A stretch of DNA of 63,241 bases, filler included, from Caldilineae bacterium (GTDB taxonomy: Bacteria; Chloroflexota; Anaerolineae; DTLA01), in NCBI GenBank assembly GCA_037446815.1. It is 3 parts of 3 records of this genome, joined end to end, with 100 filler letters (N's around TTAATTAATTAA, not from the genome) between each part and the next. Parts side by side here need not be neighbours in the genome. Positions count along the whole stretch, not along the records: positions 43,233 to 63,241 come from JBBIHX010000043.1; 2 more parts are not named here. One strand, given 5' to 3'. The notes under the pieces were generated by a model. That model searched no databases, was not told the origin of the DNA, and worked only from the letters and a program-made list of their open reading frames with translations. This document shows, in pieces, positions 43,390 through 62,751 of the stretch. The translations under genes were made by a program, and so were the position numbers. The number at the start of each line of letters is the position of its first letter. Within the stretch, counting starts at the first letter, position 1.

Positions 43390-44400
43390 CTACGGCTCCA
43401 CGATGGCCTTGGCCACCGCCCCCGACTCCACCGCCTTGAGCGCCGCCTCGGTGTCGTCCAGGCCCACCACAAGCCCCACGAGCGCCTCCGCGTCCACCAC
43501 GCCCTCGGCGATAAGGCGGATGCCGACCTCAAACTCGCCCGCGTAGTAGATGAACGACCCGAGGATTTCCACTTCCCTGCGCGCCACCGCCATCGGCACC
43601 ACCTGAGCCGGGCGCGTGGATAGCCCCACGAGCACGACCCGTCCGCCGGCCCGCACCAAATCCAGCGCCTGCTGCACCGTCGCGGCCACGCCCGCCGTCT
43701 CAAACACAACCAGCGGCCCTTGCCCCGACGGCGTAAGGGCGCGGATGCGGGCTACTATATCCGGGTCGCGCCCGTTGAAAGCCGCCTCGGCTCCCAGTCG
43801 GCGCGCCAACTCCAGTTTCTCCGGCACGATGTCCACCGCGAAAACCCGCGCGCCGGCCACCTTCGCCGCGGCGACGGTCAGCAGGCCAATGGCGCCGCAA
43901 CCCATCACGGCCACCGCATCGCCCACGCGCACCCGCCCCCGCCGCACCGCATGCACGCCCACCATCAGCGGCTCCACCAGCGCGCCCTGCCGGTACGACA
44001 TGGCAGCGGGAATCGGCCACACGAAGCGCGCGGGCACCTTGGCGTACTCGGCCAGCGTCCCCGGCCAGTTGATGGCCATGCCCACGCGGTTCACGCACAG
44101 GTTGACCAGCCCTTCGCGGCAGTACAGGCATTCGCCGCACGAGAAGTTCGGCTCGGCGGTAACCCGCTGGCCCACGGCGATGCCCGATACCCCCTCGCCG
44201 ACCGCGACCACATCGCCGGCGAATTCATGCCCCAGAATCTGCGGGTACTCCACGCTGCGGTCGCCGGTGTACATGTGCAGATCAGACCCGCAGATGCCCG
44301 TGGCCCGCACGCGGATGACCACCTCGCCTGGGCCGGGCTCCGGCCTGGCGACCTCACCCAGCCGAATATCCCGCGGGCCGTACAGCAATGCCGCCTTCAT
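43390..44400 (-). CDS. Zinc-dependent dehydrogenase (sorbitol/idonate DH-like)
   Basis: GICGSD, LGHE, CGECLYC..C, LVEP, GCGAIG. Confidence 0.9.
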   Translation of the reverse strand: MKAALLYGPRDIRLGEVARPEPGPGEVVIRVRATGICGSDLHMYTGDRSVEYPQILGHEFAGDVVAVGEGVSGIAVGQRVTAEPNFSCGECLYCREGLVNLCVNRVGMAINWPGTLAEYAKVPARFVWPIPAAMSYRQGALVEPLMVGVHAVRRGRVRVGDAVAVMGCGAIGLLTVAAAKVAGARVFAVDIVPEKLELARRLGAEAAFNGRDPDIVARIRALTPSGQGPLVVFETAGVAATVQQALDLVRAGGRVVLVGLSTRPAQVVPMAVARREVEILGSFIYYAGEFEVGIRLIAEGVVDAEALVGLVVGLDDTEAALKAVESGAVAKAIVEP

Positions 44401-44416
44401 AGCCCTCTCCTCCCCT

Positions 44417-46357
44417 CTACACTTGCCAGCCGGCCAGCAAGCCTTCGTAGATGGCGTTGACCAACCGGCGCGGCTGGTTGGCGTCGCCGATGACGTGCAC
44501 GGGCACGTCCAGCGAGCCGAGCGCGTCGGCCAGCGAACGCTCCGCCACGGCGCCCGCCGCCAGCACAATCACGTCGGCGGGGAAAAGCGCCGGCTTCCCA
44601 TCCGCAAACTCGCAGGCCAGACCCTCGTCGGCGACGCTCTTCGCCCTGCACGCCGCGTAGCCGATAATGCCGGCGCGCTCCAGTTCCTCCAGCAGGTCAA
44701 TGCGCGTCGTCGGCTCCACGTCGGGCGCGATTCGGTCCAGCATCTCCACCAGGGTAACGCGATTGCCCCGCGCCGCCAGGTACAGCGCCGTCTCGCAGGC
44801 CACCAGCCCCGCGCCGATCATCGCCACCGTCTTGTCTCGCACGTCGGCCTTGCCGCTGAGCACATCCCACGCCGTAACCACGCGGGCGTCGTCCAGCCCG
44901 GTGATGGGCGGGCGCAAGGGTTTTGCCCCCGTGGCCACAATCACCGCGTCCGGCTTCTGCGCCGCCACGTACTCCGGCGTGGCCTCCACGCCCAGGCGCA
45001 CCTCCACGCCCGCCTCGCGGAGTTGCCGCGTAAGCGTGTCCTGGAGCCAGAGAATCTTCTCCTTCCCGGGCGGGCGGCTGCTCAGCATCATCTGGCCGCC
45101 CAGTTCCGTGCCACGCTCGCAGAGGATAACCCGATGTCCACGCCGCGCCGCCGCCCACGCGGCCTCCATGCCCGCCGGCCCGCCCCCGATGACCAGCACG
45201 CGCTTCGGCTGGTGCGCGGGCGCAAAATCGTCAAAGACCTCCTCGCGGCCCAGGAACGGGTTCACCGTGCAGCGGATGGGCACGCCGTCCACGCTCCGCG
45301 ACTTGGAACAGACGTTGCAGGAGATGCAGCGGCGGATGCGGTGCGCCTCACCCGCCCGCGCCTTGTTCACCCACTCCGGATCGGCCAGCAGCCCCCGTCC
45401 CAGCACCGCGAAGTCCATCTTCCCCATGGCGATGGCCGCGTCCGCAAAGGCCGGCTCCCGAATCACGCTGGCCGCCAGCACCGGCACGCTCACCACCTGG
45501 CGAATCCCCTCGGCCAGGTAGAGTTTCCATCCCTGCGGGAAGCGCATCGGTTCTATCTGCTTGTGATGGGCCGCGGGGAATGCCGCCGAGATGTGCAGCG
45601 CGTCCAAGCCGGCCGCGGCGAGCATCTTGGCCAGCGCCTTGTACTCCTCCTGCGTATTGCCGCCCTCCACGAAATCGTCGCCGTTGATGCGCATCCACAG
45701 CGGGAACCCGCGCCCCACCGCCTGGCGCACGGCGGCGATGACCTCCAGCGCGAAGCGCGCGCGCCCCTCCAGCCCGCCCCCGTACTCGTCGGTGCGGCGG
45801 TTGGTGTACGCCGACAGAAACTGGCTGATGAGATACCCGTGCGCGCCGTGAATCTCGACGCCGTCAAATCCCGCCCTCACCGCGCGCGCCGCAGCCGCCG
45901 CGAAGCATTGCACGATCTCGTGAATCTCGTGCACCGTCAGCGGGTGAGGCGTCGCACGGCCCGGCGCCACCGGCACGTCCGAGGGGCCTACCGGCGCGCC
46001 CCCGCACAGTTGCGGCGATGTCAGCGCGCCCACGTGGTTGATCTGGATCGCGGCCCTCGCGCCGTAGCGCTGGATCGCCTCGGCCAGGCGATTGAGGCCG
46101 GGGATGAACTCGTCGCGGTCTATCCGATTGTGGGCCACCGCGCCCCGCCCCTGGGGATACTGCACCGTCGTGTTCTCCACGATGATGAGGCCGGTGCCGC
46201 CGCGGGCGCGCTCGGCGTAGTGGCGGATCATGCGCTCCGTTACGCCGCCCGTGTCGGAGGCGTAGTTCGTGCCCATGGGCGACATCACCACGCGGTTGCG
46301 AATCTCCATGCGTCCGATGCGCCCCGGACTCAGCAGATGCGGATACGGGTTCTTCAT
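44417..46357 (-). CDS. NADH:flavin oxidoreductase (OYE, 2,4-dienoyl-CoA reductase-like)
   Basis: GFDGVEIHGAHGYLISQF, NRRTDEYGG, CISCNVC..CTVNP, IGGGPAG. Confidence 0.92.
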   Translation of the reverse strand: MKNPYPHLLSPGRIGRMEIRNRVVMSPMGTNYASDTGGVTERMIRHYAERARGGTGLIIVENTTVQYPQGRGAVAHNRIDRDEFIPGLNRLAEAIQRYGARAAIQINHVGALTSPQLCGGAPVGPSDVPVAPGRATPHPLTVHEIHEIVQCFAAAAARAVRAGFDGVEIHGAHGYLISQFLSAYTNRRTDEYGGGLEGRARFALEVIAAVRQAVGRGFPLWMRINGDDFVEGGNTQEEYKALAKMLAAAGLDALHISAAFPAAHHKQIEPMRFPQGWKLYLAEGIRQVVSVPVLAASVIREPAFADAAIAMGKMDFAVLGRGLLADPEWVNKARAGEAHRIRRCISCNVCSKSRSVDGVPIRCTVNPFLGREEVFDDFAPAHQPKRVLVIGGGPAGMEAAWAAARRGHRVILCERGTELGGQMMLSSRPPGKEKILWLQDTLTRQLREAGVEVRLGVEATPEYVAAQKPDAVIVATGAKPLRPPITGLDDARVVTAWDVLSGKADVRDKTVAMIGAGLVACETALYLAARGNRVTLVEMLDRIAPDVEPTTRIDLLEELERAGIIGYAACRAKSVADEGLACEFADGKPALFPADVIVLAAGAVAERSLADALGSLDVPVHVIGDANQPRRLVNAIYEGLLAGWQV

Positions 46358-46417
46358 CTCCGCCTCCTTGACGATGAAACGCGGCGGGCCAGGCGATTGC
46401 CCGGCCCGCGACAACGG

Positions 46418-48130
46418 TTACAGGTCTGCGAGCGTGCCGTCCACCTCCGACTCGGGCACGTCAAACACGACATTGTGCGGCGGCAGCGGCTCTTCCAACA
46501 TGAATTCGGGCAGACGGTCGTCCGCCGTCGTAAAGCCCGCCCGTCGGTTGAACTCCAGTTCCAGTTTCAGCACGGTGCGGTTCATCTGCTCCAGGTCCTG
46601 CACTGTCCAGCCCCAGCCAAACCGCCCGTTGATGAGGTCCACCATCAGTTGCGGGTCAGCGAACACGGGCGGCCGCGCGAACAGGCACAGGCCGGTGTAG
46701 TCCAGCATCGCCGCGCCCAACTGCAACTTTCGCGACTCGGCCCGCTGCCCCTCTATGCCGAGCGGGTTCACTGTGGCCCGCGAGCCGAAGGCATTGCCTG
46801 CCGTGTGGTCCGCGCCCATGGGCGACGTGGCGTAGGTAACGCCGTTGCCCTTGAGGGAGCGCGGGTCGTAGGCCGGCATGGCCTGCCCCTTCACTGCGGG
46901 GATCCGCCTGATGCCCAGGACGCGCCCTGTAACCACCGCGCCCTGCCCGATCATCCTGCCGACGACGCTATCTTTCGCCACCTCTTGGAGCAGCGCGACA
47001 AAACTATCCTTGTCGCCGAATTTCGCCAGCCCCGCCTCGGCAGCGATACCCAGCGCGGCCCCGGTCTCAATGGTATCCAGCCCCAGGTCGTTGCACATAT
47101 AGTTCAGTTCGGCGACTTCGTCTAGCGTGCCCAGGCCCAAGTTGGAGCCCAGCAGGCCGATGGTCTCGTACTGCAGCGTGCCCACGATCGGCTTGCCGCT
47201 CTCGTCCACGAAAACGTTGCAGCAGGCGATAACGCATCCGGGCATGCAGCGGGTGCCCACCTGCCCACCCCGCGCCAGCGTAACCTCGCGCAGGTGTTCC
47301 CCGCGCAGGTTCTCGGCTTCCTCAAATCGCCCGTCGCGGAAGTTGCGCGTGGGCAGCGACCCCATCTCGTTCACCGCGCCCACGATGGACGCCGTCCCGT
47401 ACAGGTGCGACGAACCCTTGTGGCCGGTCTTGGGGCTATTCCACAACTCCTGCCCGAAGCGGCGGGCAGCGGCTCGGAACAATTCCGGATTGGCCAAGGC
47501 TGCGGGGCCTGCGTTCCCTGCGTCCAGCACCACGGCCTTCAGGCCCTTGCTCCCCATCAGCGCGCCCAGGCCTCCGCGGGCCGCTTGGCGACTGACCTGG
47601 TCGCCCTCGCCGGTGCAGGCCACGCTCGCGCCCGCAAGTTTCCGCTCGCCCGCGGGGCCGATGCTCATCACCGTGCAACTCGCACCCCAGCGCGCGCGGG
47701 CGGCCTCCGCTGTGGCATACGTGCCCAGCCCGCGCCACTCCTCCGCGGGGAGCAACTCCACCTTGTCGGGCGACACGTACAACTGATACAGCCCGCCGTC
47801 CGACGGCTGGCCCTCCACCACGATGGCCTTGATGTCCAGGCGGCCCAGCACGATGCCGGCGGTCCCGCCCGCGTTGGCCTCCTTGACGCCGCCCGTCAGC
47901 GGGCTCTTGCCGCCGACCGACACTCGCCCTGCGCTGGACAGGCTCGTGCCCCCCAGCAGGCCGGGCGCGAAGATAAGTTTGTTGTGGGGTCCCAGCGGCT
48001 CGCAGCGCGGCGGGACCTCCTCCAGAAGGATTTTCGCGATAAGTCCGCGCCCGCCGAACTGCTCGTAGGCAGGCGGAACCGGCTCCCACCTCACCGTCTG
48101 GTGGGTCATGTCAACGCGCAGTATCTTCAT
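46418..48130 (-). CDS. Aldehyde:ferredoxin oxidoreductase family (W/Mo)
   Basis: GGRG, KSPLTGG.KEANAGG, ARGGLGALMGSKGLKA, C..C..AC, LGLDTIE. Confidence 0.92.
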   Translation of the reverse strand: MKILRVDMTHQTVRWEPVPPAYEQFGGRGLIAKILLEEVPPRCEPLGPHNKLIFAPGLLGGTSLSSAGRVSVGGKSPLTGGVKEANAGGTAGIVLGRLDIKAIVVEGQPSDGGLYQLYVSPDKVELLPAEEWRGLGTYATAEAARARWGASCTVMSIGPAGERKLAGASVACTGEGDQVSRQAARGGLGALMGSKGLKAVVLDAGNAGPAALANPELFRAAARRFGQELWNSPKTGHKGSSHLYGTASIVGAVNEMGSLPTRNFRDGRFEEAENLRGEHLREVTLARGGQVGTRCMPGCVIACCNVFVDESGKPIVGTLQYETIGLLGSNLGLGTLDEVAELNYMCNDLGLDTIETGAALGIAAEAGLAKFGDKDSFVALLQEVAKDSVVGRMIGQGAVVTGRVLGIRRIPAVKGQAMPAYDPRSLKGNGVTYATSPMGADHTAGNAFGSRATVNPLGIEGQRAESRKLQLGAAMLDYTGLCLFARPPVFADPQLMVDLINGRFGWGWTVQDLEQMNRTVLKLELEFNRRAGFTTADDRLPEFMLEEPLPPHNVVFDVPESEVDGTLADL

Positions 48131-48164: not shown

Positions 48165-49073
48165 TCAATATGCAGCCAGCAGGAACGGCATCACCGCCAG
48201 GCCGGCCAGGATGGACAGCGAGATAGCCCCCGCCGCGAACTCCGTATCCAGCCCCTCCATGGAGGCGTACACCAGCACCACGATCCCGATGGGCATGGCC
48301 GCGCCCATAGCCACGGCAGCCCGCGCCAGCCCCTGCAGCCCGAAGATCGCCACCAGCGCCTGCCCCACCAGCCAGCCCCCCGCGATGCGTAGCGCCACCG
48401 CCGTCAGCATGGGTCGCCATCGGGAAAACCGCAGTTCTATGAACGCGCCCAGGGTCAGCATGGCCAGCGGCCCGTTCGCCTTGGACACGGGTTCCAGAAT
48501 CTGCACCAGCCAAGCGGGCAGCGACACGCCCAGCAAGTTCACCGAAATCCCCAGGACATTCGCCCAGAAGGTGGGCAGGGCCAGCACCCGCTTCAGTCCC
48601 GCATGCCAGGCCGACGATGCGTTCGTCCCGTGTCGCGTCGCCGTGTAGTAGGCGTAACTGTTGCCCACCAGCGAGTTGCCCAGGTCAAAGGCCGCCAAAC
48701 GGCTAATGCCCTCGGCGCCGTAGAACGTCAGGAAGAACGGCACCAGGAAGAACCCGATGTTGCTCACCATGGTGCTGGTGATGAGCACGCCGGCCACGGG
48801 CTTCTCCAGTCGCATCGCCCTGGCCGCCAGGCGGGCCAGCAGTTGCAGCACCAGCGGAATGGCCGCCCCGCAGAAACTGAGCACCAGGATGCTCCCGATC
48901 TCCAACTCCGCCCGCGCCAGCGACAGAAACAGAAGTGCAGGCAGGGTCGCATTGATGATGACGCGCGCCATCGTGTGCCCGTCATCGTGTCGCAGAATGC
49001 GGGCCTGCCGAAACAGGAACCCCGCAACCATCCACGTGAGAATAGGCAGCGACTGGCTCAGGATGCTTGCCAT
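48165..49073 (-). CDS. AEC (auxin efflux carrier) family transporter
   Basis: LPAL.F, SNIGF..P, AAMP and about 10 TM segments. Confidence 0.85.
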   Translation of the reverse strand: MASILSQSLPILTWMVAGFLFRQARILRHDDGHTMARVIINATLPALLFLSLARAELEIGSILVLSFCGAAIPLVLQLLARLAARAMRLEKPVAGVLITSTMVSNIGFFLVPFFLTFYGAEGISRLAAFDLGNSLVGNSYAYYTATRHGTNASSAWHAGLKRVLALPTFWANVLGISVNLLGVSLPAWLVQILEPVSKANGPLAMLTLGAFIELRFSRWRPMLTAVALRIAGGWLVGQALVAIFGLQGLARAAVAMGAAMPIGIVVLVYASMEGLDTEFAAGAISLSILAGLAVMPFLLAAY

Positions 49074-50131
49074 CGGCCCGACAACTCCACCGGCTGGCCC
49101 GTCTCCCCCGACTTCATGATGGCCAGGACGACCTCCAGTGTTCGGCGCGCATCCCGCCCGCTCGTCCTGGGTTCCTCCTCCCGCCGAGCCACGCGGCAGA
49201 AGTGGCGCATCTCCTCGCGCAGCGGGTGCACCGGCGTAACCCCCAGCCGGTCCACCTGCAGCGGCCACTGCCAGCCTGCCTTCTCGGCATCCGGATACCA
49301 CACGTGGCGCATCTGCGGCAGCGTCAGCGACCCCTTGGTGCCGAAGAAGTAGTAGCAATCCTCCGGCGAATAGAAGAAGTACGGGTTCTCCCAGGGCGAG
49401 GTAGTGGACTCATAGGCCCAGATGGACGGCACGCAGTCCGACGTGGTGATGGTGGCGACGACATCCCCATCCAGGCGCAGCGAGATGGCGATGGTATCCT
49501 CCACCTCAAACCCCCGCGTCCGATTGCTCGTCTCGGCGAAGACGCGGACGACATCGCGCCCGCTGATGTAGCGGATGTCGTCCACGTCGTGAATCGTATT
49601 GATGAGCAGCGGCCCGCCGCCCGTAGCCTTCTTCGTTCGCCAAGTGGCCTGGAAGTAGTCCTTGGGCTTGAGAATAGTCCACAGCACCGCGATGGCCGTC
49701 AGGTCGCCCAGCGCCCCGCCCTGAATCATCTCCCGCGCCCGCATCACAAACGACGAGAACCGCCGATGGTGCCCAATGAGCAGCGGCGTGCCGCTCTCGT
49801 CGGCCGCCGCGATGATACGGTCTGCCGCGTCCAGCGTGGGAGCGATGGGCTTTTCCAGCAGCACCGGAATCCCCCGCCGCAGGCACTCCACCGCCACCGG
49901 CTCGTGCTGGTCGTTGGACACGACCGCGACGACGCCGTCCAGGCGCTCCTTGTCCAGCATCTCGCGGAAGTCTTGATAGAAGCGCGCGCCAAGGTTTTCG
50001 GCCACCTTCCCCCGCTCGGGAACGACATCGCATGCCGCGACCAGTTCCATCTCCGGCAACTGGGCCGCGATCTGCAGGTGGTTCACGCCAAACCCAAGCC
50101 CGATAATGGCAACGCGAGTCTTCTCAGCCAT
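49058..50131 (-). CDS. Gfo/Idh/MocA oxidoreductase (IolG-like)
   Basis: IIGLG.G, LLEKPIA, GHHRRF, GGGPLLINTIHDVD. Confidence 0.9.
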   Translation of the reverse strand: MAEKTRVAIIGLGFGVNHLQIAAQLPEMELVAACDVVPERGKVAENLGARFYQDFREMLDKERLDGVVAVVSNDQHEPVAVECLRRGIPVLLEKPIAPTLDAADRIIAAADESGTPLLIGHHRRFSSFVMRAREMIQGGALGDLTAIAVLWTILKPKDYFQATWRTKKATGGGPLLINTIHDVDDIRYISGRDVVRVFAETSNRTRGFEVEDTIAISLRLDGDVVATITTSDCVPSIWAYESTTSPWENPYFFYSPEDCYYFFGTKGSLTLPQMRHVWYPDAEKAGWQWPLQVDRLGVTPVHPLREEMRHFCRVARREEEPRTSGRDARRTLEVVLAIMKSGETGQPVELSGRWQAS

Positions 50132-54873: not shown

Positions 54874-54888
54874 ATTCTCGTTCCCCGC

Positions 54889-55039
54889 GATTCGGTTCCA
54901 AAGTCTGTTGGCATCTACCGTCATTCTGAGCGGCGAAGCCGCGAAGAATCTCGCTGACCGAGATGCTTCGCCTTCGGCTCAGCATGACAGAGCGGAGAGG
55001 CGGTGCGCGGGGCAGACCAACACAAGATGGAACCGAGTC
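54889..55039 (+). mobile_element. MITE-like element, cargo type B, followed by a degenerate second left end at 55048
   Basis: GATTCGGTTCCAAAGTCTGTTGG...CCAACACAAGATGGAACCGAGTC. Flanks TTCCCCGC and CTCTCCGC match 6/8. Confidence 0.8.
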
Positions 55040-55338
55040 CTCTCCGCGATTCGGTTCCGGGGCCTGTTGGTTGCCCTCATTGCGATAGCCCACCGCGCCC
55101 GCAGCGATCTCCCCCTTCCAGGCCCTCTCCCAGTGCGTGGTGGCCCGTTGTCCTGTCATCCTTCGCCGCTTCGCGGCTCAGAATCTCGCGCGCCTATCCG
55201 AGCAACCCGCGTTGTTCGCGGTTATCGCCCCACGAGATGGATTCACCACGATCGCGCGAACGCACGAGGAGGGTGTGGCGTGGCCCACCGACACAGGGCA
55301 AAGCGTGCGCGCACAACAAACTCCGACGCACGCCATCG

Positions 55339-55488
55339 GATTCGGTTCCAAAGTCTGTTGGTATTTGTCATTGCGAGGGCGCGGAGCGCCCGAAGCAATC
55401 TCTGGGGCGTGAGGTTGCTTCGCTTCGCTCGCAACGATACACGGGGAGAGTGTCCATGCGTTTCACCAACACAAGATGGGACCGAGTT
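55339..55488 (+). mobile_element. MITE-like element, cargo type A
   Basis: GATTCGGTTCCAAAGTCTGTTGG...CCAACACAAGATGGGACCGAGTT. Perfect 8-bp direct repeat CGCCATCG (55331-55338, 55489-55496). Confidence 0.85.
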
Positions 55489-55649
55489 CGCCATCGCGTG
55501 CGTCGGAGTTGCTATCCCATGGGGATTACACCGCCCTTCGTTACCAGCCCGACCGCGCCCGCGGACGCGCCACACCGAGCCGTTCGACGGGCAACCATCC
55601 GCCTCGGCGGGAATCGGAAGCGTGCGGGCTAGAATTGCCGGCGCGCCTT

Positions 55650-56833: not shown

Positions 56834-57544
56834 CTACGCTACGCCCAGATAGGCGTGCTGCACAACCGGGTTCTCGCGCAATGCTTCAGCGGTATCCGTG
56901 AAGCGGATGCGCCCCGTTTCCAGCACCACGCCGTGATGGGCAATCTTCAGCGCAGCGCGCGCGTTCTGCTCCGACAGCAGGATGGTGATGCCCTGGCGGT
57001 TCAGTTCCGCGATAATCTCAAAAACGTGTTGAACGAGCATGGGAGCAAGCCCCAGCGACGGCTCGTCCATGATGAGAATCTGCGGCCTGGACATCAGCGC
57101 GCGGGCGATGGCCAGCATCTGCTGCTCGCCACCGCTCAGCGACCCGGCCAGCTGCCGCTCGCGCCCCTTCAGGGCCGGGAACAGTTCGTACATGCGCGCC
57201 TTGTCCTGCGCGATCCCATCCGCGTCCGAGCGGTGATACGCGCCCATCTCCAGGTTCTCGTCCACGGTGAGCACCGGGAAAACGCGGCGACCTTCGGGCA
57301 CGTACCCGATTCCGCGCGCCACGATTTTGTGAGCCGGAAGCCGGTGCACCGGTTCGCCGTCCAAGTAGATGGCCCCTTGCCGAGGGTGCACGATGCCGCA
57401 GATGGCTTTCATCGTTGTGGACTTGCCCGCCCCGTTCGCGCCGATGAGGGTGGTGATCTCGCCCTTGCGCACCTCAAAGGAAATCCCCTTGACGGCGTGG
57501 ATGTGCCCGTAGTAGATGTGCACGTTCTCCAGGGTCAACATCAC
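56834..57544 (-). CDS. livF: Liv-type ABC transporter ATP-binding subunit
   Basis: GANGAGKST, LSGGEQQMLAIARALM, DEPSLGLAP. Confidence 0.88.
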   Translation of the reverse strand: MMLTLENVHIYYGHIHAVKGISFEVRKGEITTLIGANGAGKSTTMKAICGIVHPRQGAIYLDGEPVHRLPAHKIVARGIGYVPEGRRVFPVLTVDENLEMGAYHRSDADGIAQDKARMYELFPALKGRERQLAGSLSGGEQQMLAIARALMSRPQILIMDEPSLGLAPMLVQHVFEIIAELNRQGITILLSEQNARAALKIAHHGVVLETGRIRFTDTAEALRENPVVQHAYLGVA

Positions 57545-58302
57545 TCCCCCTCCTTGCCGAGGTACGCCTCAATGACGACGGGGTCGCAACTCACGGCGCT
57601 GCACGAACCCTCGGCGATCTTCTTCCCGTAGTCCAGCACCGACACCACATCGGAGATTTCCATCACCAGTTTCATGTCATGTTCCACGAGGAAGATGGTG
57701 ATGCCAGCCGCGCGGATTTGCAGCAGGATGTCGCGCAACTCGGCCGTCTCGGTCTCGTTGAGGCCGGCGGCAGGCTCGTCCAGCAGAACCACCGTCGGCT
57801 CGGTCGCCAGCGCCCGCGCGATCTCCACCCGCCGCTGCAGGCCGTAGGGCAGGCTGGTCGCGAGTTCGTCGGCGTACTGCTCTATCCGCAGAAGCCGCAA
57901 CTTCTCCATGGCCTTCTCTTTCAGTTGGCGCTCTTCCTGCCGCACTGCCAGGGGCGCCACCACGTGTTGCCAGAAGCGCGTGCGCGCGTGGTGCCCCAGC
58001 GCCACCTGCACATTCTCCAGAACCGTCATGCTGCGGAACAGGCGCAGGTTCTGGAACGTTCGGGCCAGCCCCAGCGCGGTGATCTTGTACGCAGGCAGCC
58101 CGCTAATCGTCTGCCCCTTGAATCGCACCATCCCGCCCGTGGGCTTGTAATAGCCCGACACGACGTTGAAGATGGTGGTCTTGCCCGAGCCGTTAGGCCC
58201 GATGAGGGCGTGGATCTCGCCTTCCTGGATGTTCAGCGACACGTTGTTCACGGCCACCAGGCCGCCGAATTGCATCGTGAGGTTTTCTATCTCTAGCAAC
58301 AT
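57541..58302 (-). CDS. livG: Liv-type ABC transporter ATP-binding subunit
   Basis: GPNGSGKTT, RTFQN, LPYG, DEPAAG, VIEAYLG. Confidence 0.88.
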   Translation of the reverse strand: MLLEIENLTMQFGGLVAVNNVSLNIQEGEIHALIGPNGSGKTTIFNVVSGYYKPTGGMVRFKGQTISGLPAYKITALGLARTFQNLRLFRSMTVLENVQVALGHHARTRFWQHVVAPLAVRQEERQLKEKAMEKLRLLRIEQYADELATSLPYGLQRRVEIARALATEPTVVLLDEPAAGLNETETAELRDILLQIRAAGITIFLVEHDMKLVMEISDVVSVLDYGKKIAEGSCSAVSCDPVVIEAYLGKEGE

Positions 58303-58306: not shown

Positions 58307-59314
58307 CTACCTCGCTTCTCCGGATGGCCCGTTGCCTGCCTCGCCGGTGTCTGCTTGGCGGGCCAAGCGGGATGCCTGCCGCTCCCGCCAGCGTGCGGCG
58401 ATGCCCATCACCCCGCCGGGGAAGAACAGCACCACCAGCACCACCGCCACGCCGTAGAACACCAACTGCCAGTCCCGGAATGTCCGCAAGGCTTCCTGCA
58501 GGATGACCAGAACGCCGCCCACCAGCGACCCCAGCAGATTGCCCATCCCGCCCACCATCGTCATGGTGAGGACAAAAAGCGTGGAGCGGAACTCAAAGAT
58601 GTCTGGGCTGATGTACGTGTTGAGGTGGGCGAACAGTACGCCGGCCACCCCCGCATACACCGCGCTGATCGTGATGGCAAGAATCTGGTAGAACCCGATG
58701 TTGACGCCCATGGCCTTGGCCGCCACATAGTCATCCCGCACCGCGCGGAACGCCCGGCCAAAACGGTGCCGCGTGATCTGCCGCGCAATCAGGTAGCCGA
58801 GGATGACCGCCGCCAGAACGAGGTAGTAGTACTTCTGCTCGGAGTTGAACACGAAGCCAAACAGGCTTGGCCGCTTGATGCCGGGGATCCCCATGGCTCC
58901 CCGGGTGATCTTCTCTTCGTTCACTAGGATGATGTTGATGACCTCGCCAAGCCCCAGCGTAACGATGGCCAGGTAGTGCGACCGCACCTTGAGCGAGGGC
59001 AGCGCGACGACGCTCCCGATGACCGCCGTAGCGACCATCGCCGCCGGCAGCGTCAACCAGAAGGGCCACTTGAAGTTGACATTGAGCAGCGCCGCAGTGT
59101 ACGCTCCCACGGCCCAGAACGCGCCCATGGCCAGGTTGATCTGGCCGCAGTAGCCCATGGCGATATTCAGCCCGAGGCTGATGAGGATGTACAGCCCCGT
59201 CATGTTCAGGATACGCACCTGATAGTCGTTCCGCGCGATCTTAGGCATGGCGAGGAGAAGCGCCAACAGCGCCACCAACGCGAGTGTTTTCCACAGGGTC
59301 GTGCGCGTCTTCAT
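58307..59314 (-). CDS. livM: Liv-type ABC transporter permease
   Basis: GLN...GY.GQ, YLAIVTLG, GRAFRAVRDD, PGG. Confidence 0.88.
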   Translation of the reverse strand: MKTRTTLWKTLALVALLALLLAMPKIARNDYQVRILNMTGLYILISLGLNIAMGYCGQINLAMGAFWAVGAYTAALLNVNFKWPFWLTLPAAMVATAVIGSVVALPSLKVRSHYLAIVTLGLGEVINIILVNEEKITRGAMGIPGIKRPSLFGFVFNSEQKYYYLVLAAVILGYLIARQITRHRFGRAFRAVRDDYVAAKAMGVNIGFYQILAITISAVYAGVAGVLFAHLNTYISPDIFEFRSTLFVLTMTMVGGMGNLLGSLVGGVLVILQEALRTFRDWQLVFYGVAVVLVVLFFPGGVMGIAARWRERQASRLARQADTGEAGNGPSGEAR

Positions 59315-59323: not shown

Positions 59324-60217
59324 CTACACCTTCTCAACCGTCGTCTCGCCCACGATGCCGGAGGGCTTGACCATGAGGACGAGAACCATGATGATGAACG
59401 CGATGCCCTTCGTGTAGGCGGATGAGATGAAGCCCGCCGAGATCGCCTCAATCACGCCGAACAGCAGCCCGCCGACGATGGCGCCCGGGATGCTGCCCAG
59501 GCCGCCCAAGATGGCCGCGGCAAACCCCTTGATGCCCACCGCCGCGCTCATGGCCGGGTTCACGTACACGATGGGAGCCGCCAGGATGCCTGCTGCCGAT
59601 GCCAGCCCCGAGCCAATGGCGAACGTTACCGCGTTGGTGAAGTTCACCGGTATCCCCATGGCGCTGGCAATCTCGCGATCCTGAGCCGCCGCACGCATCG
59701 CCTTGCCCACCTTCGTCCGCGACAAGAACGTCTGCAGGCCGATCATGAGCAGCGTCCCTACCCCGATAACCAGCAGCATCTGCGGCAACAGGGACACGCC
59801 GCCCACAAGGATTGGTTTGGAGGGCAGGGGCGACTTCACCGCAAACCCCTCCGCGCCCCAGATGATGATGGCCAGGTTGTCCAGCATGATCCCCACGCCG
59901 ATGGTGCCCAGAAGCATGAGCATCAGATCCAGGTTCGCCAGGGGGCGGAACAGGCGCTCCAGCAGCACGCCCAATATCGCGGTCAGCACAACGCCGATGA
60001 TGAACGCCGCCCAGTAGGGCAGGTGCAGGCCGGCAACCATCCCCTTGTAGAAGATGATGCCGAAGTAGGTGCCAATCATGTAGATGCTGCCGTGGGCGAA
60101 GTTGACGAGGCCCATGGAACGGTACACCATGGAGTATCCCAGGGCCACCAGGGCGTAGATGCTGCCAATGCCCAGGCCGCCGACGATGGTCTGCACAAGA
60201 ATGACCGTCTTGGTCAT
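59324..60217 (-). CDS. livH: Liv-type ABC transporter permease
   Basis: GSIYALVALG, VNFAHG, GKAMRA, AAILGGLGSIPGA, KPSG. Confidence 0.88.
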   Translation of the reverse strand: MTKTVILVQTIVGGLGIGSIYALVALGYSMVYRSMGLVNFAHGSIYMIGTYFGIIFYKGMVAGLHLPYWAAFIIGVVLTAILGVLLERLFRPLANLDLMLMLLGTIGVGIMLDNLAIIIWGAEGFAVKSPLPSKPILVGGVSLLPQMLLVIGVGTLLMIGLQTFLSRTKVGKAMRAAAQDREIASAMGIPVNFTNAVTFAIGSGLASAAGILAAPIVYVNPAMSAAVGIKGFAAAILGGLGSIPGAIVGGLLFGVIEAISAGFISSAYTKGIAFIIMVLVLMVKPSGIVGETTVEKV

Positions 60218-60305: not shown

Positions 60306-61523
60306 CTACTGGACCGACACGGGGGTCAGTTTGCCGTCCTTGACAACGCCGATGCCCACGTTGTGCAGGCCTTCGCCGTTCTCGTCGTAGCAAATCTCGC
60401 CCTGCAAGCCCTGGACGCCGCAAATCTTGTGGAGTTCCTCGGTGATGCGCTCGGGCGTGATGTCGGGATAGGCCTTCTCCAGCGCCATGATGAGCACCGT
60501 AGCGCCATCATAGGCCTTGGCACCGTGGCTCTCCGGCTCGTCGCCCCAGCGGGCCTTGTATCGCGCCGCGAAGTCGCGGGTCATGTCGTTGAGATCGTTG
60601 GTGATGTACGGGTTGGAGTAGTAGGTGCCCTCCGCAGCATCCCCCGCAACCTCAACGAACTTGGTCGTGCCGATAGCCGCGCCGCCCGCGAATTGGCCGG
60701 TGAAGCCCAACTGCCGCGCCTGCTTGGCGATGAGGCCCGAAGCAACCTCGGAGCCGCCGAACAGGATGACCTCCGGATTGGTCTGGAGAATCTTGGTCAA
60801 CTGGCCGGTGAAGTCCTTGTCGTCAATCGCGTACCACTCCACGGCCAGGGGCTCCAGCCCGTGTTCCTTCAGGGCGTTGGTCTGGTATTCCGCCTCGCCC
60901 TTGCCGTAGGCCGACGTGTCGGAAATGATCGCGAACTTCTTGAACCCTTTGCCCACCATGAAGTCCACGATGCTCTTCTCATACGCGGGCCCAGCCGGGC
61001 AATCGCGGAACACGTACTTGCTGCCCTTCTGGGTAATGGTCGCGTTGAGCGCGGAGGTCAGATGCGGGATCTTGTACTCTTTGAAGATGTCCACGACCGC
61101 CAGGGTTGTCGTGCTATTGGTGCATGCGAACGCCGCCACCACCTTGTCCTGAGTGATGAGTTTCTGGGCCAGGGCTACGGCCTTGGTCGGGTCGGCCTCG
61201 TCGTCTTCCTGAATCAGCACCAGCGGCCTGCCGTGGATGCCGCCCTGCGCGTTCTTGGCCTCAAAGGCCAGCAGGATGCCGCGCTCGTCCCATTCGCCCA
61301 GGATGGCATTCGTGCCGGTCTTTGGCGCAATCCAGCCGATCTTGATGGGCTCAGGCGGCTGGGTCGGAGCCGCGGTGGGAGCCGCAGTCGGCTGCGCGGG
61401 CGCCGTGGTCGGTTGGGCCGCGGGCTTCGTGGGCGTGGGGGTAGCCTTCGCGCCGCACGCGCCCAGCAGCACCGCAACAATGGACAGCAGGGTAACCAGA
61501 AGATACACATTTCGCCGGGTCAT
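60306..61523 (-). CDS. Liv-type ABC transporter substrate-binding lipoprotein
   Basis: LGAC lipobox, Pro/Thr linker, IKIG...P.TG, GGIHGR, DFTGQLTKI, YDG. Confidence 0.9.
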   Translation of the reverse strand: MTRRNVYLLVTLLSIVAVLLGACGAKATPTPTKPAAQPTTAPAQPTAAPTAAPTQPPEPIKIGWIAPKTGTNAILGEWDERGILLAFEAKNAQGGIHGRPLVLIQEDDEADPTKAVALAQKLITQDKVVAAFACTNSTTTLAVVDIFKEYKIPHLTSALNATITQKGSKYVFRDCPAGPAYEKSIVDFMVGKGFKKFAIISDTSAYGKGEAEYQTNALKEHGLEPLAVEWYAIDDKDFTGQLTKILQTNPEVILFGGSEVASGLIAKQARQLGFTGQFAGGAAIGTTKFVEVAGDAAEGTYYSNPYITNDLNDMTRDFAARYKARWGDEPESHGAKAYDGATVLIMALEKAYPDITPERITEELHKICGVQGLQGEICYDENGEGLHNVGIGVVKDGKLTPVSVQ

Positions 61524-61673
61524 CTGCTCTTCCTCCTCATGTTCCTGAATTCGTGGGTGGACCAGTCTCGCAAATCGGGATGACTCAGGTTTTCGGCGCT
61601 CTCACCTCCTTTCTCCTGTCAGTGCCCTCGGGTATCCTTGTACGGACGCAACGACAGGGGTATTCGGTTCTCC

Positions 61674-61913
61674 CTATCCGCCGGACAACGGTGGGAAGAG
61701 GCACACACGGCTGTCCGGCGGGACATCATGCTCCAGCGTTACCTGCACCCCGTTGACCGTGGCCAGCCCCACCGCTTCGGGGTCAATCCCCAGGCGCAGG
61801 GCCACGTCGCGCACCGTCAGGGGGCCTTCGGCGGCCAGGCGTTGCCGCCGCTCCGCTCGGGGCAGCAGCGCCCCGAATATCTCTACTTCAAACGAGAAGG
61901 TTTCTCCACTCAC
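61674..61913 (-). CDS. MoaD/ThiS family sulfur-carrier protein
   Basis: 79 aa, VNG, C-terminal LFPPLSGG. Confidence 0.85.
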   Translation of the reverse strand: MSGETFSFEVEIFGALLPRAERRQRLAAEGPLTVRDVALRLGIDPEAVGLATVNGVQVTLEHDVPPDSRVCLFPPLSGG

Positions 61914-61914
61914 G

Positions 61915-62751
61915 CTACTGGGTCCGAACAGGTTCCGGCCGAATCCGCCGAACCTTGTTGAGCGTTTCGGTGTGGCTGATGCCGGGCATCAACACGGCAG
62001 CCAGCCCGATCTCGCGGGCAATATCGTCGGCGCAGGCGCGCACCACGGGCCCCAGTTCCAGCATCCGGTCCATCGGCAGGCGGAAGGCCGGCCCGGCCAC
62101 CGCCACCACGGCCACAGGCCTGCCCCGCGGGTCCAGGATGGGCGCGGCTACCGCATTGATGCCGTCCTCATACTCCGACTGAGCAATGGCAAACCCGCGC
62201 TCGCGGGTGGCGCGAAGGTCGGCAAGAAAATCGTCCGGGGAAACGATGGTGTGCTCGGTGTATCGCCGCAGCCCCTGAATCATGATCTGGCGCACCTGGG
62301 CCTCGGGCAGATAGGCCATGACCGCCTTGCCCGATGACGTGCAACACGCAGGCAAGCGCTGGCCGGGGGCGGCGGCCAACTTCACCCGCTGCGGACTCTC
62401 AATGACGTCCAGGTACACAATATCGGTCCCGTCCAACACGCCCAGGTCCACCGTTTCGCGGCACTGCTCGCTCAACTGGCGCAAAAAAGGCCACGCGTGC
62501 CGCCGGATGTCCATCGTCTCCAGCGCCAGCATAGCCAGTTCAAGGACCCGCAGGCCCAGGCGATACTTGCCCGTAGCCTCATCGTGCTGCACGAACCCTC
62601 TGTGCTCCAGGGTAGCCAGGACGCGATGCACGGTGGTCTTGTGCAGTTCCACGCGTTCAGAGACCTCGGTCAGCGTCAACTCCGGCTCCTCGCGCGAGAA
62701 GCACAAGAGTATGTCCAACGCCCTATCCACAGCGCGAATCGGCTTGCTCAA
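61915..62751 (-). CDS. IclR family transcriptional regulator
   Basis: VDRALDIL, KTTVHRVL.TL, CTSSGKA, AVAAPI. Clear paralogue of 53993-54775. Confidence 0.95.
   Translation of the reverse strand: MSKPIRAVDRALDILLCFSREEPELTLTEVSERVELHKTTVHRVLATLEHRGFVQHDEATGKYRLGLRVLELAMLALETMDIRRHAWPFLRQLSEQCRETVDLGVLDGTDIVYLDVIESPQRVKLAAAPGQRLPACCTSSGKAVMAYLPEAQVRQIMIQGLRRYTEHTIVSPDDFLADLRATRERGFAIAQSEYEDGINAVAAPILDPRGRPVAVVAVAGPAFRLPMDRMLELGPVVRACADDIAREIGLAAVLMPGISHTETLNKVRRIRPEPVRTQ

What the first reader, a model, noticed from the sequence alone, without database searches (positions are those of the whole stretch)
43390..62751. 19-kb catabolic island: IolM/IolN ring-opening core with a non-canonical supporting cast
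Seen in sequence: 19 co-oriented genes, namely IclR-MoaD-Liv ABC-Ldh2 and IclR-cupin-U32-like-iolN-iolM-Gfo/Idh/MocA-AEC-AOR-OYE-ZnADH. Established knowledge: in Thermotoga, IolG-IolM-IolN-IolO converts inositol to a keto-gluconate and then tagaturonate, using a sugar ABC importer. Here I see no IolO epimerase, kinase or sugar ABC. Instead there is an acid/amide-type Liv transporter, IclR control, a W/Mo aldehyde oxidoreductase with MoaD, an ene-reductase and an Ldh2 enzyme. Inference: an undescribed anaerobic pathway for a modified cyclitol or cyclic polyhydroxy acid (for example amino-, deoxy- or carboxy-cyclitol) that feeds electrons to ferredoxin.
Basis: partly seen in the sequence, partly recalled or inferred. 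Interest (0 to 1): 0.72.

Follow-up and report, generated by a model that had tools for sequence, protein, structure and literature searches.

The report
Second IolM/IolN set in unknown module
A second copy of the inositol ring-opening enzymes sits inside a widespread but uncharacterised gene module of anaerobic Chloroflexi, which probably splits the opened ring without phosphorylation and passes electrons to ferredoxin.

Summary
The genes are real and mostly named correctly. There are 18 co-oriented minus-strand genes, not 19.

- **Island edges.** The window joins three unlinked contigs. The finding is the whole of contig C43, so its edges are assembly breaks inside a dispersed repeat.
- **Missing genes.** IolO, a kinase and a sugar-type ABC importer lie on contig C48 of the same genome. 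They sit there with their own IolM, IolN and UxaE.
- **Paralogues.** The C43 pair is paralogous to the C48 pair: IolN 58% identical, IolM 54%.
- **Conserved core.** In 80 loci from other species the core is IclR–cupin–U32-like TIM barrel–IolN-like hydrolase–AOR. A ThiS/MoaD-like gene, a Liv-type ABC transporter and Ldh2 are frequent.
- **Add-ons.** IolM, Gfo, OYE and the ZnADH recur only in one close relative.
- **IolN clade.** Module IolNs form their own clade.
- **Distant relatives.** Distant homologues of the U32-like protein lie in sugar-acid clusters with aldehyde dehydrogenases.

Best reading: an undescribed, non-phosphorylative, ferredoxin-linked branch downstream of IolN-type ring hydrolysis, given a cyclitol entry in this lineage. 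The substrate is unknown.

The parts
61915..62751 (-). IclR-family regulator 1
   Evidence: PF01614 150 bits and PF09339 67.6 bits. The best NCBIfam hits (BhcR, PcaR/PcaU) are all below cut-off.
61674..61913 (-). ThiS/MoaD-like small protein, 79 aa, C-terminal GG
   Evidence: Translation. PF02597 E 2.6e-4, 21.9 bits against a 22.5 cut-off. A homologue follows AOR directly in 41 of 80 other loci.
60306..61523 (-). Liv-type (Peripla_BP_6) solute-binding lipoprotein with a Pro/Thr-rich linker
   Evidence: PF13458 217.6 bits. Sequence. The closest solved proteins are branched-chain amino-acid binders.
59324..60217 (-). ABC permease (LivH-like)
   Evidence: PF02653 128.9 bits.
58307..59314 (-). ABC permease (LivM-like)
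   Evidence: PF02653 173.5 bits.
57541..58302 (-). ABC ATPase (LivG-like)
   Evidence: PF00005 and PF12399.
56834..57544 (-). ABC ATPase (LivF-like)
   Evidence: PF00005 122 bits.
55650..56702 (-). Ldh2-family 2-hydroxyacid dehydrogenase
   Evidence: PF02615 428.8 bits. Closest to L-sulfolactate and type-2 malate/lactate dehydrogenases, below every equivalog cut-off. Homologues of 58-71% identity follow AOR in Thermoflexales-type loci.
54776..55649 (.). 875-bp spacer between the two operons, filled with copies of a dispersed repeat of about 159 nt
   Evidence: Repeat families D1-D3. The 29-nt core occurs 242 times in 130 of 265 contigs of the genome. No Rfam match.
53993..54775 (-). IclR-family regulator 2, head of the core operon
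   Evidence: PF01614 166.5 bits. An IclR gene lies within the flanks in 70 of 80 other loci.
53580..53942 (-). Small metal-type cupin, 120 aa
   Evidence: PF07883 57.8 bits. H53, H55, E59, E60 and H95 are invariant in 31 sequences. It lies directly upstream of the U32-like gene in 77 of 80 loci.
52629..53543 (-). U32-like TIM-barrel protein, 304 aa, function unknown. Candidate aldolase-like enzyme.
   Evidence: No Pfam or NCBIfam family above cut-off. 28 of 35 family members touch PF01136 at E<=1. AF2 model has pLDDT 95.4. TIM-barrel matches. Homologue searches returned 2185 relatives and relatives at 583 genome stretches.
51573..52538 (-). IolN-type creatininase-fold hydrolase, module clade. 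Probable start at M29 behind AAAGGAGG.
   Evidence: NF041098 534.1 bits (cut-off 245) and PF02633 177 bits. 58% identical to the C48 IolN. Falls in the separate module clade. Start.
50155..51324 (-). IolM-type Zn-dependent dehydrogenase (second copy)
   Evidence: NF041097 534.6 bits (cut-off 450). 54% identical to the C48 IolM. Absent from relative L006 and from 79 of 80 other loci.
49058..50131 (-). Gfo/Idh/MocA oxidoreductase. Probable start at M60.
   Evidence: PF01408, PF22725 and PF02894. IolG model 134.8 bits, below the 355 cut-off. 28% identical to the C48 IolG-like protein. Start.
48165..49073 (-). AEC-family (Mem_trans) transporter. Probable start at M96.
   Evidence: PF03547 58.3 bits. 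Homologues of 40% identity or more lie between IolN and AOR in 9 of 80 loci. Start.
46418..48130 (-). Aldehyde:ferredoxin oxidoreductase (570 aa from M12)
   Evidence: PF01314 228 bits and PF02730 199 bits. Closest solved structures are true AORs (9mqx 245 bits, 1aor 241 bits, 8c0z 227 bits). Present in 59 of 80 loci and 34 of 42 full-flank loci.
44417..46357 (-). OYE + FAD/NAD(P) flavoenzyme of the FadH/BaiCD/BilR type
   Evidence: PF00724 243 bits and PF07992 108 bits. BaiCD model 532 bits, below the 825 cut-off. Found only in L007 and deleted in L006.
43390..44400 (-). Zn-dependent alcohol dehydrogenase (336 aa from M57)
   Evidence: PF08240 and PF00107. 32% identical to the C43 IolM and 31% to the C48 ZnADH. 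Homologues of 40% identity or more only in L007.
43133..43232 (.). Artificial join (N runs) between contig C40 and contig C43

Best explanation
Contig C43 is a composite locus built around a conserved, undescribed module.

**Module.** The core is IclR, a small metal cupin, a U32-like TIM-barrel protein, an IolN-type ring hydrolase and a tungsten/molybdenum aldehyde:ferredoxin oxidoreductase (AOR). A ThiS/MoaD-like gene, a Liv-type ABC importer and an Ldh2 2-hydroxyacid dehydrogenase usually accompany it. The module is widespread in Anaerolineae and also occurs in Acidobacteriota.

**Add-ons in this lineage.** A paralogous IolM, a Gfo/Idh/MocA dehydrogenase, an OYE-type ene-reductase and a Zn-ADH have been added. 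An AEC-family transporter is shared with 9 of the 80 other loci. The genome's ordinary Thermotoga-type inositol genes (IolG-like, IolM, IolN, IolO, UxaE, kinase, sugar-type ABC) lie on another contig.

**Proposed mechanism (inferred, not shown).**
1. Gfo and IolM oxidise a cyclitol, probably not the one handled by the C48 set, to a cyclic 1,3-diketone.
2. The module IolN opens the ring hydrolytically to a keto-acid.
3. The cupin (isomerase/epimerase-like) and the U32-like barrel (aldolase-like) convert and split this acid without phosphorylation. This releases an aldehyde.
4. AOR oxidises the aldehyde with ferredoxin as acceptor.
5. Ldh2 interconverts the resulting 2-hydroxy and 2-oxo acids.

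The two IclR proteins regulate the operons. The MoaD/ThiS-like protein serves AOR cofactor maturation.
For: Shown here:
- **Families.** IolN and IolM exceed their curated cut-offs. AOR, cupin, Ldh2, Liv ABC and IclR are all identified.
- **Canonical cluster elsewhere.** A full IolM–IolN–IolO–UxaE cluster with an IolG-like gene, an ABC system and PfkB lies on C48 of the same genome. The pairs are paralogues, 58% and 54% identical.
- **Gene order in other species.** In 42 loci with full 10-kb flanks: cupin 41, IolN-like 41, IclR 39, AOR 34, Ldh2 34, Liv ATPases 32, ThiS-like 27. IolM, Gfo, OYE and ZnADH occur in 1.
- **Variable add-ons.** Relative L006 (86% nucleotide identity) lacks IolM–Gfo and lacks OYE plus the 5' part of the ZnADH. 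It keeps a ZnADH 3' remnant.
- **IolN tree.** The 69 U32-linked IolNs form one clade (SH-aLRT 96). The 10 IolM/IolO-linked ones fall outside it.
- **U32-like protein.** It is a confident TIM barrel (pLDDT 95.4). Its nearest folds include class II aldolases (YdjI, tagatose-bisphosphate aldolase, FBA) and the U32 protein Mk0906. Conserved residues are E38, R136, R143, D149, K172, R211, D219, R233 and K250, with no invariant Cys or His.
- **Distant branch.** Homologues of 33-46% identity sit in sugar-acid clusters: galactonate-dehydratase-like 29 of 79 loci, SDR 14, aldehyde dehydrogenase 13, GH42 6. None has IolN, cupin or AOR. An NAD-type aldehyde dehydrogenase thus occupies there the place AOR occupies here.
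- **AOR type.** It is closest to true aldehyde oxidoreductases.
- **Operon signs.** Gaps are tight and GGAGG sites precede the refined starts.
Against: - 3 of 5 module-bearing genomes have no IolM above cut-off. Thermoflexales-type loci show no obvious pair of dehydrogenases to make a diketone. In most genomes the module therefore does not start from IolM chemistry.
- A Liv-type binding protein and an AEC carrier are typical for acids and amino acids, not neutral cyclitols.
- Fold matches of the U32-like protein span many TIM-barrel families within about 2.5 Z units. An aldolase role rests only on context.
- Frequent further neighbours have no place in the scheme: CoA-transferase pair, nitroreductase-like, BD-FAE esterase, LarA-like, GlcD/CCG, malic enzyme.
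- The tree is a quick search with a very long outgroup branch, so rooting is unsure.
- The contig is cut at both ends, so the gene set is incomplete.
- There are no expression or biochemical data.
Confidence: 0.5

Rival explanations
1. One reading: all 18 genes form one island for a modified cyclitol (amino-, deoxy- or carboxy-cyclitol). IolM/IolN is its ring-opening core and the rest is its dedicated supporting cast.
For: All genes are co-oriented and tightly packed. The canonical inositol set is elsewhere with its own IolM/IolN. The close relative L007 keeps IclR2 through ZnADH colinear.
Against: IolM, Gfo, OYE and ZnADH recur in 1 of 80 other loci and are missing in L006. The upstream operon is not adjacent in L007. 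The island edges are contig ends. Further module-associated genes of the same genome lie on C113 and C41.
Confidence: 0.18
2. Redundant inositol route. C43 IolM/IolN act on scyllo-inosose like the C48 pair and hand 5-dehydro-L-gluconate to IolO/UxaE on C48. Cupin, the U32-like protein, AOR and the rest are unrelated neighbours.
For: Both pairs exceed the equivalog cut-offs. IolO and UxaE exist in the genome.
Against: The cupin–U32-like–IolN–AOR order is kept in species of different phyla (41, 41 and 34 of 42 full-flank loci). These include genomes without any IolM above cut-off. Module IolNs are a separate clade.
Confidence: 0.12
3. The module IolN-like enzyme does not act on a cyclitol derivative at all. 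It opens another ring that enters as an acid through the Liv-type importer, for example a cyclic diketone or lactam from plant phenolic or hydroaromatic breakdown. IolM–Gfo are later hitch-hikers.
For: The transporters are Liv-type and AEC-type. IclR is closest to PcaR/PcaU. CoA-transferase pairs occur in 24 and 22 of 42 full-flank loci and BD-FAE esterase in 19. A tannase fragment and corrinoid methyltransferase genes lie in L056. There is no IolM in 3 of 5 genomes.
Against: 58% identity to an IolO-linked IolN and a full-length 534-bit match to the IolN model. Selection placed IolM–Gfo directly behind this IolN. The known dihydrophloroglucinol ring hydrolase belongs to a different ('cyclase') family (passages of PMC10470551). 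The distant U32-like relatives sit in sugar-acid clusters, not aromatic ones.
Confidence: 0.15

Closest known systems
Thermotoga maritima inositol pathway (IolG, IolM, IolN, IolO, then UxaE and hexuronate enzymes). Source: Rodionova et al. 2013, Environ Microbiol 15:2254. I saw that paper only as a reference entry; the intermediates are named in passages of PMC5931981 and the IolO activity in passages of PMC12632266.
   Same: IolM and IolN equivalog-level matches sit side by side, preceded by a Gfo/Idh/MocA dehydrogenase. A complete copy of the Thermotoga-type set exists in the same genome on C48.
   Different: The C43 set has no IolO, UxaE, kinase or sugar-type ABC system. Its IolN belongs to a separate clade that is linked to a cupin, a U32-like barrel and AOR. 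Regulation is IclR-type, not the ROK-type IolR named in PMC3750489.
Non-phosphorylative sugar-acid routes in which an aldolase releases an aldehyde that is oxidised to an acid. Examples are the archaeal non-phosphorylative Entner-Doudoroff branch with glyceraldehyde oxidised by an AOR-type enzyme, and the Dahms / De Ley-Doudoroff variants. This is recalled knowledge.
   Same: There is no kinase in the module. A TIM barrel with aldolase-like fold neighbours lies next to an aldehyde-oxidising enzyme. Distant homologues of the barrel lie beside galactonate-dehydratase-like, SDR and aldehyde-dehydrogenase genes.
   Different: The barrel is not a member of any known aldolase family by sequence. Entry is through a ring hydrolase, not a sugar-acid dehydratase. 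The aldolase activity is inferred only.
Peptidase U32 superfamily (PF01136; solved member Mk0906, PDB 5d88)
   Same: Weak sequence relation: 28 of 35 family members hit at E<=1, the best at 7.7e-8. The TIM-barrel fold matches at Z 14.7. Atlas neighbour clusters carry PF01136 on 18-23% of members.
   Different: The window protein is below the gathering score (15.7 against 22.4 bits). No Cys is conserved, so an iron-sulfur cluster such as I recall for the U32 hydroxylases UbiU/UbiV is unlikely. The gene context is catabolic.
Bacterial AOR operons that carry a MoaD-like gene (Aromatoleum aromaticum aor operon; recalled. Its AorB is PDB 8c0z.)
   Same: The AOR is 227 bits to 8c0z and 241 bits to Pyrococcus AOR. 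A ThiS/MoaD-like gene follows AOR in 41 of 80 loci.
   Different: No AorA- or AorC-like electron-transfer subunits are seen beside it. In this window the small gene has moved to the head of the upstream operon.

Membership tests
IolN, 3-dehydro-scyllo-inosose hydrolase (NF041098) | Full-length match above the curated cut-off | tested here: met
   534.1 bits against a 245 cut-off, model positions 1-307 of 307. Creatininase fold PF02633 at 177 bits.
IolN, 3-dehydro-scyllo-inosose hydrolase (NF041098) | Same clade as IolNs that are linked to IolO/IolM | tested here: inconclusive
   69 U32-linked sequences form their own clade (SH-aLRT 96). The 10 IolO/IolM-linked ones lie outside. The tree is a quick search and its root sits on a very long branch. 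Identity to the C48 IolN is 58%.
IolN, 3-dehydro-scyllo-inosose hydrolase (NF041098) | Hydrolysis of 3-dehydro-scyllo-inosose to 5-dehydro-L-gluconate | not testable with these tools
   Needs an enzyme assay.
IolM, scyllo-inosose 3-dehydrogenase (NF041097) | Full-length match above the curated cut-off, with Zn-ADH domains | tested here: met
   534.6 bits against a 450 cut-off, positions 1-388 of 389. PF08240 and PF00107.
Thermotoga-type inositol operon | IolO (5-keto-L-gluconate epimerase) encoded with IolM/IolN | tested here: not met
   No AP_endonuc_2 or IolO match among the C43 proteins. IolO (352 bits, cut-off 300) is on C48 next to the other IolN. The profile of the U32-like family is unrelated to IolO (probability 0.5%).
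Thermotoga-type inositol operon | IolG equivalog (inositol 2-dehydrogenase) | tested here: not met
   The Gfo protein scores 134.8 bits against TIGR04380, cut-off 355.
Peptidase U32 (PF01136) | Match at or above the gathering score | tested here: not met
   15.7 bits against 22.4, E 0.0095. The family as a whole is a distant relative: 28 of 35 members hit at E<=1.
Peptidase U32 (PF01136) | Fold like a solved U32 protein | tested here: inconclusive
   5d88 gives Z 14.7, rmsd 3.0 over 189 residues. It is tied with many other TIM barrels at Z 13-16.
Class II (metal) aldolases of the FBA / tagatose-bisphosphate / YdjI type | Sequence membership and conserved His metal ligands (ligand set recalled) | tested here: not met
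   No significant sequence match to solved aldolases (1gvf E 0.6). No invariant His in 35 sequences. Only fold-level similarity: TM 0.46-0.53, Z 13.9-14.9.
Aldehyde:ferredoxin oxidoreductase family | AFOR_N plus AFOR_C domains, and closest relatives that are true AORs | tested here: met
   199 and 228 bits. 9mqx 245 bits, 1aor 241, 8c0z 227. BamB and WOR5 reach only about 89 bits.
Cupin_2 metal cupins | Domain match and conserved His/Glu ligands | tested here: met
   57.8 bits against 27.2. H53, H55, E59, E60 and H95 are invariant in 31 sequences. The motif definition is recalled.
ThiS/MoaD sulfur-carrier fold | Family match and C-terminal Gly-Gly | tested here: inconclusive
   21.9 bits against a 22.5 cut-off. 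The sequence ends ...LSGG.

The most novel reading that the evidence does not exclude
The U32-like TIM-barrel proteins are a new family of aldolase-type enzymes for keto-sugar acids. This family comprises 864 representative clusters at 50% identity, and relatives were confirmed at 583 stretches of species-representative genomes. Together with a dedicated cupin, an IolN-clade ring hydrolase and a tungsten AOR, they form a previously unknown, kinase-free, ferredoxin-reducing pathway for cyclitols or related ring compounds. That pathway would be common in anaerobic Anaerolineae and Acidobacteriota of soils, sediments and digesters. In aerobes the same barrel works with NAD-dependent aldehyde dehydrogenases in sugar-acid routes.
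Probability: 0.3. Interest if true: 0.8.

Novelty: new variant of a known kind. Interest (0 to 1): 0.62.

Why it matters
Anaerolineae are among the most abundant uncultured fermenters in sediments, soils and digesters, and their substrates are poorly known.

A conserved module would assign a function to a large orphan branch of the U32 superfamily. It would couple hydrolytic ring opening to a ferredoxin-reducing aldehyde oxidation, without ATP investment. It would also add a low-potential electron source to the fermentation of plant-derived cyclitols or related rings.

Finally, it would show that the NCBIfam 'IolN' name currently covers at least two context-distinct clades.

Tried and rejected
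- **Cupin/U32-like complex.** Prediction with alignments for both chains gave no verdict (score 0.00 against a mark of 0.32). It counts neither for nor against binding.
- **U32-like against IolO.** Profile-profile comparison found no relation (probability 0.5%). The barrel is not a diverged IolO by sequence.
- **Solved structures by sequence.** For the U32-like protein, neither the single sequence nor the profile gave anything significant.
- **Fold searches.** These show a TIM barrel but do not single out one family.
- **Phloroglucinol idea.** I considered that the module IolN might be a dihydrophloroglucinol-type hydrolase. The published enzyme is of the 'cyclase' family, not creatininase-like, so this was dropped as a direct analogy.
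- **Fused forms.** A search for longer forms of the U32-like protein found one 562-aa protein with ATP-grasp domains. It is a single case and not informative.
- **Linking contigs.** Comparing terminal sequence of C43 with C113, C41 and C217 showed only short repeat matches.
- **Rfam.** A scan of C43 found nothing at E<=0.1.
- **Literature searches.** These found no description of this module: 'IolM'+'IolN'; the intermediates and 'scyllo-inosose 3-dehydrogenase'; 'IolN'; 'creatininase'+'aldehyde ferredoxin oxidoreductase'+'cupin'. The library lacks most subscription journals. Rodionova et al. 2013 could not be read.

Full report
**1. What the sequence holds**

The region is 63-70% G+C, and every supported gene lies on the minus strand.

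- **IolN:** 534.1 bits against NF041098 (cut-off 245).
- **IolM:** 534.6 bits against NF041097 (cut-off 450).
- **Cupin:** the 120-aa frame at 53580-53942, not the overlapping 137-aa ORF.
- **'U32-like' protein:** its only family signal is a sub-threshold PF01136 hit (E 0.0095).
- **'MoaD':** a 79-aa ORF ending in GG that just misses the ThiS-family cut-off.
- **Gene count:** I count 18 genes. The ORF in the 875-bp spacer is repeat sequence.
- **Starts:** starts refined behind GGAGG-type sites give IolN 321 aa, AOR 570 aa, Gfo 357 aa, AEC 302 aa, OYE 646 aa and ZnADH 336 aa. These lengths match the homologues elsewhere.

**2. The 'island' is a contig**

The window is three contigs of a 265-contig, 3.19-Mb assembly, joined by N runs. 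C43 spans 43233-63241.

C43 begins and ends with the same 28-nt string. It carries copies of a dispersed repeat of about 159 nt at both ends and in the spacer between the two operons. The 29-nt core of that repeat occurs 242 times in 130 of the 265 contigs, and 102 of those copies lie within 300 nt of a contig end.

The finding's borders are therefore assembly breaks. Contigs C39 and C40 in the window say nothing about its surroundings.

**3. The canonical pathway is elsewhere in the same genome**

A family search of the genome found a second IolN above cut-off on contig C48. C48 encodes, in order:
- IolM (575 bits)
- an MBL-fold protein
- a Zn-ADH
- IolN (525 bits)
- IolO (352 bits, cut-off 300)
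- UxaE (PF16257, 531 bits)

Divergently, it encodes an IolG-like Gfo/Idh/MocA protein, an SBP_bac_8 ABC system and a PfkB kinase.

This matches the Thermotoga scheme. [quoted passage not shown] IolO is described as the 5-keto-L-gluconate 4-epimerase in passages of PMC12632266. The primary paper, Rodionova et al. 2013, I saw only as a reference entry.

The C43 and C48 proteins are paralogues: IolN 58% identical, IolM 54%. So IolO is indeed 'elsewhere', but with its own IolM/IolN. This argues against mere sharing and for a separate role of the C43 set.

**4. What is conserved in other genomes**

*Spread of the U32-like protein.*
- 2185 homologues at E<=0.001 among the 8000 candidates scored. The best 120 are 81-98% identical and nearly all 304 aa long.
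- 864 hits among 50%-identity representatives.

*The 80 best loci.* These are mostly Anaerolineae and Thermoflexales, with some Acidobacteriota. I compared them by tblastn and by de novo clustering of their ORFs.

Counts within the flanks of the 42 loci that have full 10-kb flanks:

| Gene | Loci of 42 |
|---|---|
| cupin | 41 |
| IolN-like | 41 |
| IclR | 39 |
| AOR | 34 |
| Ldh2 | 34 |
| Liv ATPases | 32 |
| LivH | 29 |
| LivM | 28 |
| ThiS-like | 27 |
| Peripla_BP_6 binding protein | 27 |
| CoA-transferase (two subunit families) | 24 and 22 |
| unknown 154-aa protein | 21 |
| diverged Zn-ADH | 20 |
| BD-FAE esterase | 19 |
| nitroreductase-like | 18 |
| LarA-like | 17 |
| GlcD-like | 16 |
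| CCG/Fe-S | 16 |
| malic enzyme | 13 |

The extra families were identified. By contrast, IolM, Gfo, OYE and the C43 ZnADH are found at 40% identity or more only in L007. AEC is found in 9 of the 80 loci.

*Usual order.* It is IclR–cupin–U32-like–IolN–AOR–ThiS–Liv ABC. In Thermoflexales-type loci it is Liv ABC–IclR–cupin–U32-like–IolN–AOR–Ldh2. The genes of the window's upstream operon therefore belong to the same module, though here they are rearranged and carry a second IclR.

*The closest relatives.*
- L007 (86% nucleotide identity) is colinear only from IclR2 to ZnADH. Upstream it has primase, sigma-70, a PLP enzyme, an aminotransferase and a D-2-hydroxyacid dehydrogenase.
- L006 (also 86%) lacks IolM–Gfo (window 51356-49137) and OYE plus the 5' two-thirds of the ZnADH (46384-43703). 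It keeps a ZnADH 3' remnant, which points to a deletion in L006.

*The own genome.* It holds nitroreductase–unknown–CoA-transferase pair at the end of C113 and LarA–CCG–GlcD at the end of C41. Linkage to C43 could not be shown.

**5. Is the module IolN tied to IolM?**

In five genomes reached through module loci, IolN is above cut-off in 5 of 5 but IolM in only 2 of 5. In those two genomes, IolM sits beside a different, lower-scoring IolN (about 310 bits) with IolO.

In a sample of 301 genomes of the phylum, 9 have an IolN match at E<=1e-40.

A quick maximum-likelihood tree of 81 rows was built: 69 U32-linked IolNs, 10 IolM/IolO-linked, one of unknown context and one creatininase-like outgroup. 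All U32-linked sequences fall in one clade (SH-aLRT 96), with the C43 protein nested among Thermoflexales-type sequences. The careful search did not finish and the outgroup branch is very long. The clade is supported, but its rooting is not.

At 58% identity to an IolO-linked IolN, similar chemistry is the economical assumption: hydrolysis of a cyclic 1,3-diketone. The substrate may still differ.

**6. The U32-like protein and the cupin**

*Fold.* AlphaFold2 with 35 sequences gives a confident (β/α)8 barrel (pLDDT 95.4, pTM 0.93).
- Foldseek ranks YdjI aldolase, tagatose-1,6-bisphosphate aldolase, class II FBA and the U32 protein Mk0906 first (E about 1e-7, TM 0.43-0.55).
- The independent aligner ranks CutC (Z 16.1), MJ1099, RuBisCO-like proteins, a putative FBA (14.9), Mk0906 (14.7) and YdjI (14.5), with many barrels close behind.
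- The fold is clear. The family is not.

*Sequence relation to U32.* 28 of 35 members touch PF01136 at E<=1, the best at 7.7e-8. Atlas neighbours carry PF01136 on 18-23% of members. The family is thus a distant U32 branch.

*Conserved residues.* Across the near and far branches they are E38, R136, R143, D149, K172, R211, D219, R233 and K250, with no conserved Cys or His. Inference: a metal and/or lysine active site that binds carboxylates, without an iron-sulfur cluster.

*Cupin.* It keeps the His/His/Glu/His ligand positions invariant.

**7. A clue from distant relatives**

A scan of metagenome contigs with a subfamily of 33-46% identity gave 80 loci, and the window's U32-like protein matched in 79 of them. 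None has IolN, cupin, AOR or Ldh2 nearby. Their conserved neighbours are:
- an enolase-superfamily protein closest to galactonate/gluconate dehydratases: 29 of 79 loci; 299 bits against a 311 cut-off
- an SDR at the edge of the glucose-1-dehydrogenase model: 14
- GntR/FCD regulators: 13
- Zn-ADHs: 11
- aldehyde dehydrogenases: 13
- AP_endonuc_2 barrels: 8
- GH42 β-galactosidases: 6
- sugar-type ABC parts

This is the make-up of an oxidative, kinase-poor sugar-acid route. In such a route, the step after the dehydratase is an aldol cleavage or a related conversion of a 2-keto-3-deoxy acid, and an aldehyde is then oxidised.

By analogy, the barrel in the window's module would act on the open-chain keto-acid made by IolN. 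AOR would take the place of the NAD-dependent aldehyde dehydrogenase. This is context evidence only.

**8. Mechanism proposed**

*Shown:* family identities, gene order, paralogy, conservation and fold.

*Inferred:*
1. Gfo and IolM make a cyclic diketone from a cyclitol.
2. The module IolN opens the ring.
3. The cupin and the U32-like barrel isomerise and cleave the product.
4. AOR oxidises the released aldehyde to an acid and reduces ferredoxin.
5. Ldh2 handles the 2-hydroxy/2-oxo acid. In other genomes LarA-like, GlcD/CCG and malic enzymes may share this role.
6. The ThiS/MoaD-like protein serves AOR cofactor synthesis, as I recall for the Aromatoleum aor operon.

For 5-dehydro-L-gluconate, a retro-aldol split would give dihydroxyacetone and tartronate semialdehyde. 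For a 3,5-didehydroquinate-type substrate, hydrolysis plus retro-aldol would give oxaloacetate and hydroxyacetone. Both are paper chemistry and untested.

*Unexplained:*
- the Liv-type and AEC transporters, which suggest an anionic substrate
- the CoA-transferase pair
- the nitroreductase-like protein
- how genomes without IolM form the IolN substrate

**9. Verdict**

This is not an IolM/IolN island. It is a widespread orphan module (cupin, U32-like barrel, IolN clade, AOR) that in this lineage has gained IolM–Gfo and other add-ons. It sits beside a complete canonical inositol cluster elsewhere in the genome.

I found no description of the module in the searchable literature. The library omits most subscription journals.

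Noticed in passing
window 1-63241: The window is not one stretch of genome. It is contigs C39, C40 and C43 joined by N runs, with a further 100-N run at 7234-7333. Gene neighbourhood across the joins is meaningless.
   Followed up: yes
window 54889-55400, 62863-63108, 43278-43327 and both ends of C43: A dispersed repeat of about 159 nt with a GC-rich hairpin-like core. The 29-nt core has 242 copies (up to 4 mismatches) in 130 of 265 contigs, and 102 lie within 300 nt of contig ends. It probably causes the fragmented assembly. No Rfam match.
   Followed up: partly
L005 (G000 contig C48) 2881-15943: A complete Thermotoga-type inositol cluster in the same genome: IolM, an MBL-fold protein, a Zn-ADH, IolN, IolO and UxaE, with a divergent IolG-like gene, an SBP_bac_8 ABC system and a PfkB kinase.
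   Followed up: yes
G001:C18:55636-56557 (genome of L045) and G002:C5:49512-50434 (genome of L059): In two genomes that also have a canonical IolM–IolN–IolO set, the module-type IolN match is split. One has an in-frame TGA and the other is in two pieces. These are possibly decaying copies.
   Followed up: no
L056 15010-20827: Downstream of a Thermoflexales-type module lie a tannase fragment, a corrinoid-binding protein, a URO-D-like methyltransferase, a Zn-ADH and a second AOR. This hints at a link to plant phenolic or methoxylated compounds.
   Followed up: no
L087 about 3543 (genome G001): An AOR homologue (32% identical to the window's) lies about 3 kb from a canonical IolO–IolM–IolN cluster, on the opposite strand.
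   Followed up: no
G000 contigs C113 (6313-9145) and C41 (16003-20006): Genes that flank the module in other species lie at contig ends of the same genome: nitroreductase-like, a 154-aa unknown and a CoA-transferase pair on C113, and LarA-like, CCG/Fe-S and GlcD-like on C41. They may adjoin C43 in the real chromosome.
   Followed up: partly
L016 10001-10912: One locus holds a U32-like gene (80% identical) with none of the usual neighbours. The same contig also holds a complete module (L019).
   Followed up: no
P0271: A single 562-aa protein joins a U32-like part (52% identity over 56% of the query) to ATP-grasp domains. It is either a possible fusion or a gene-calling artefact.
   Followed up: no
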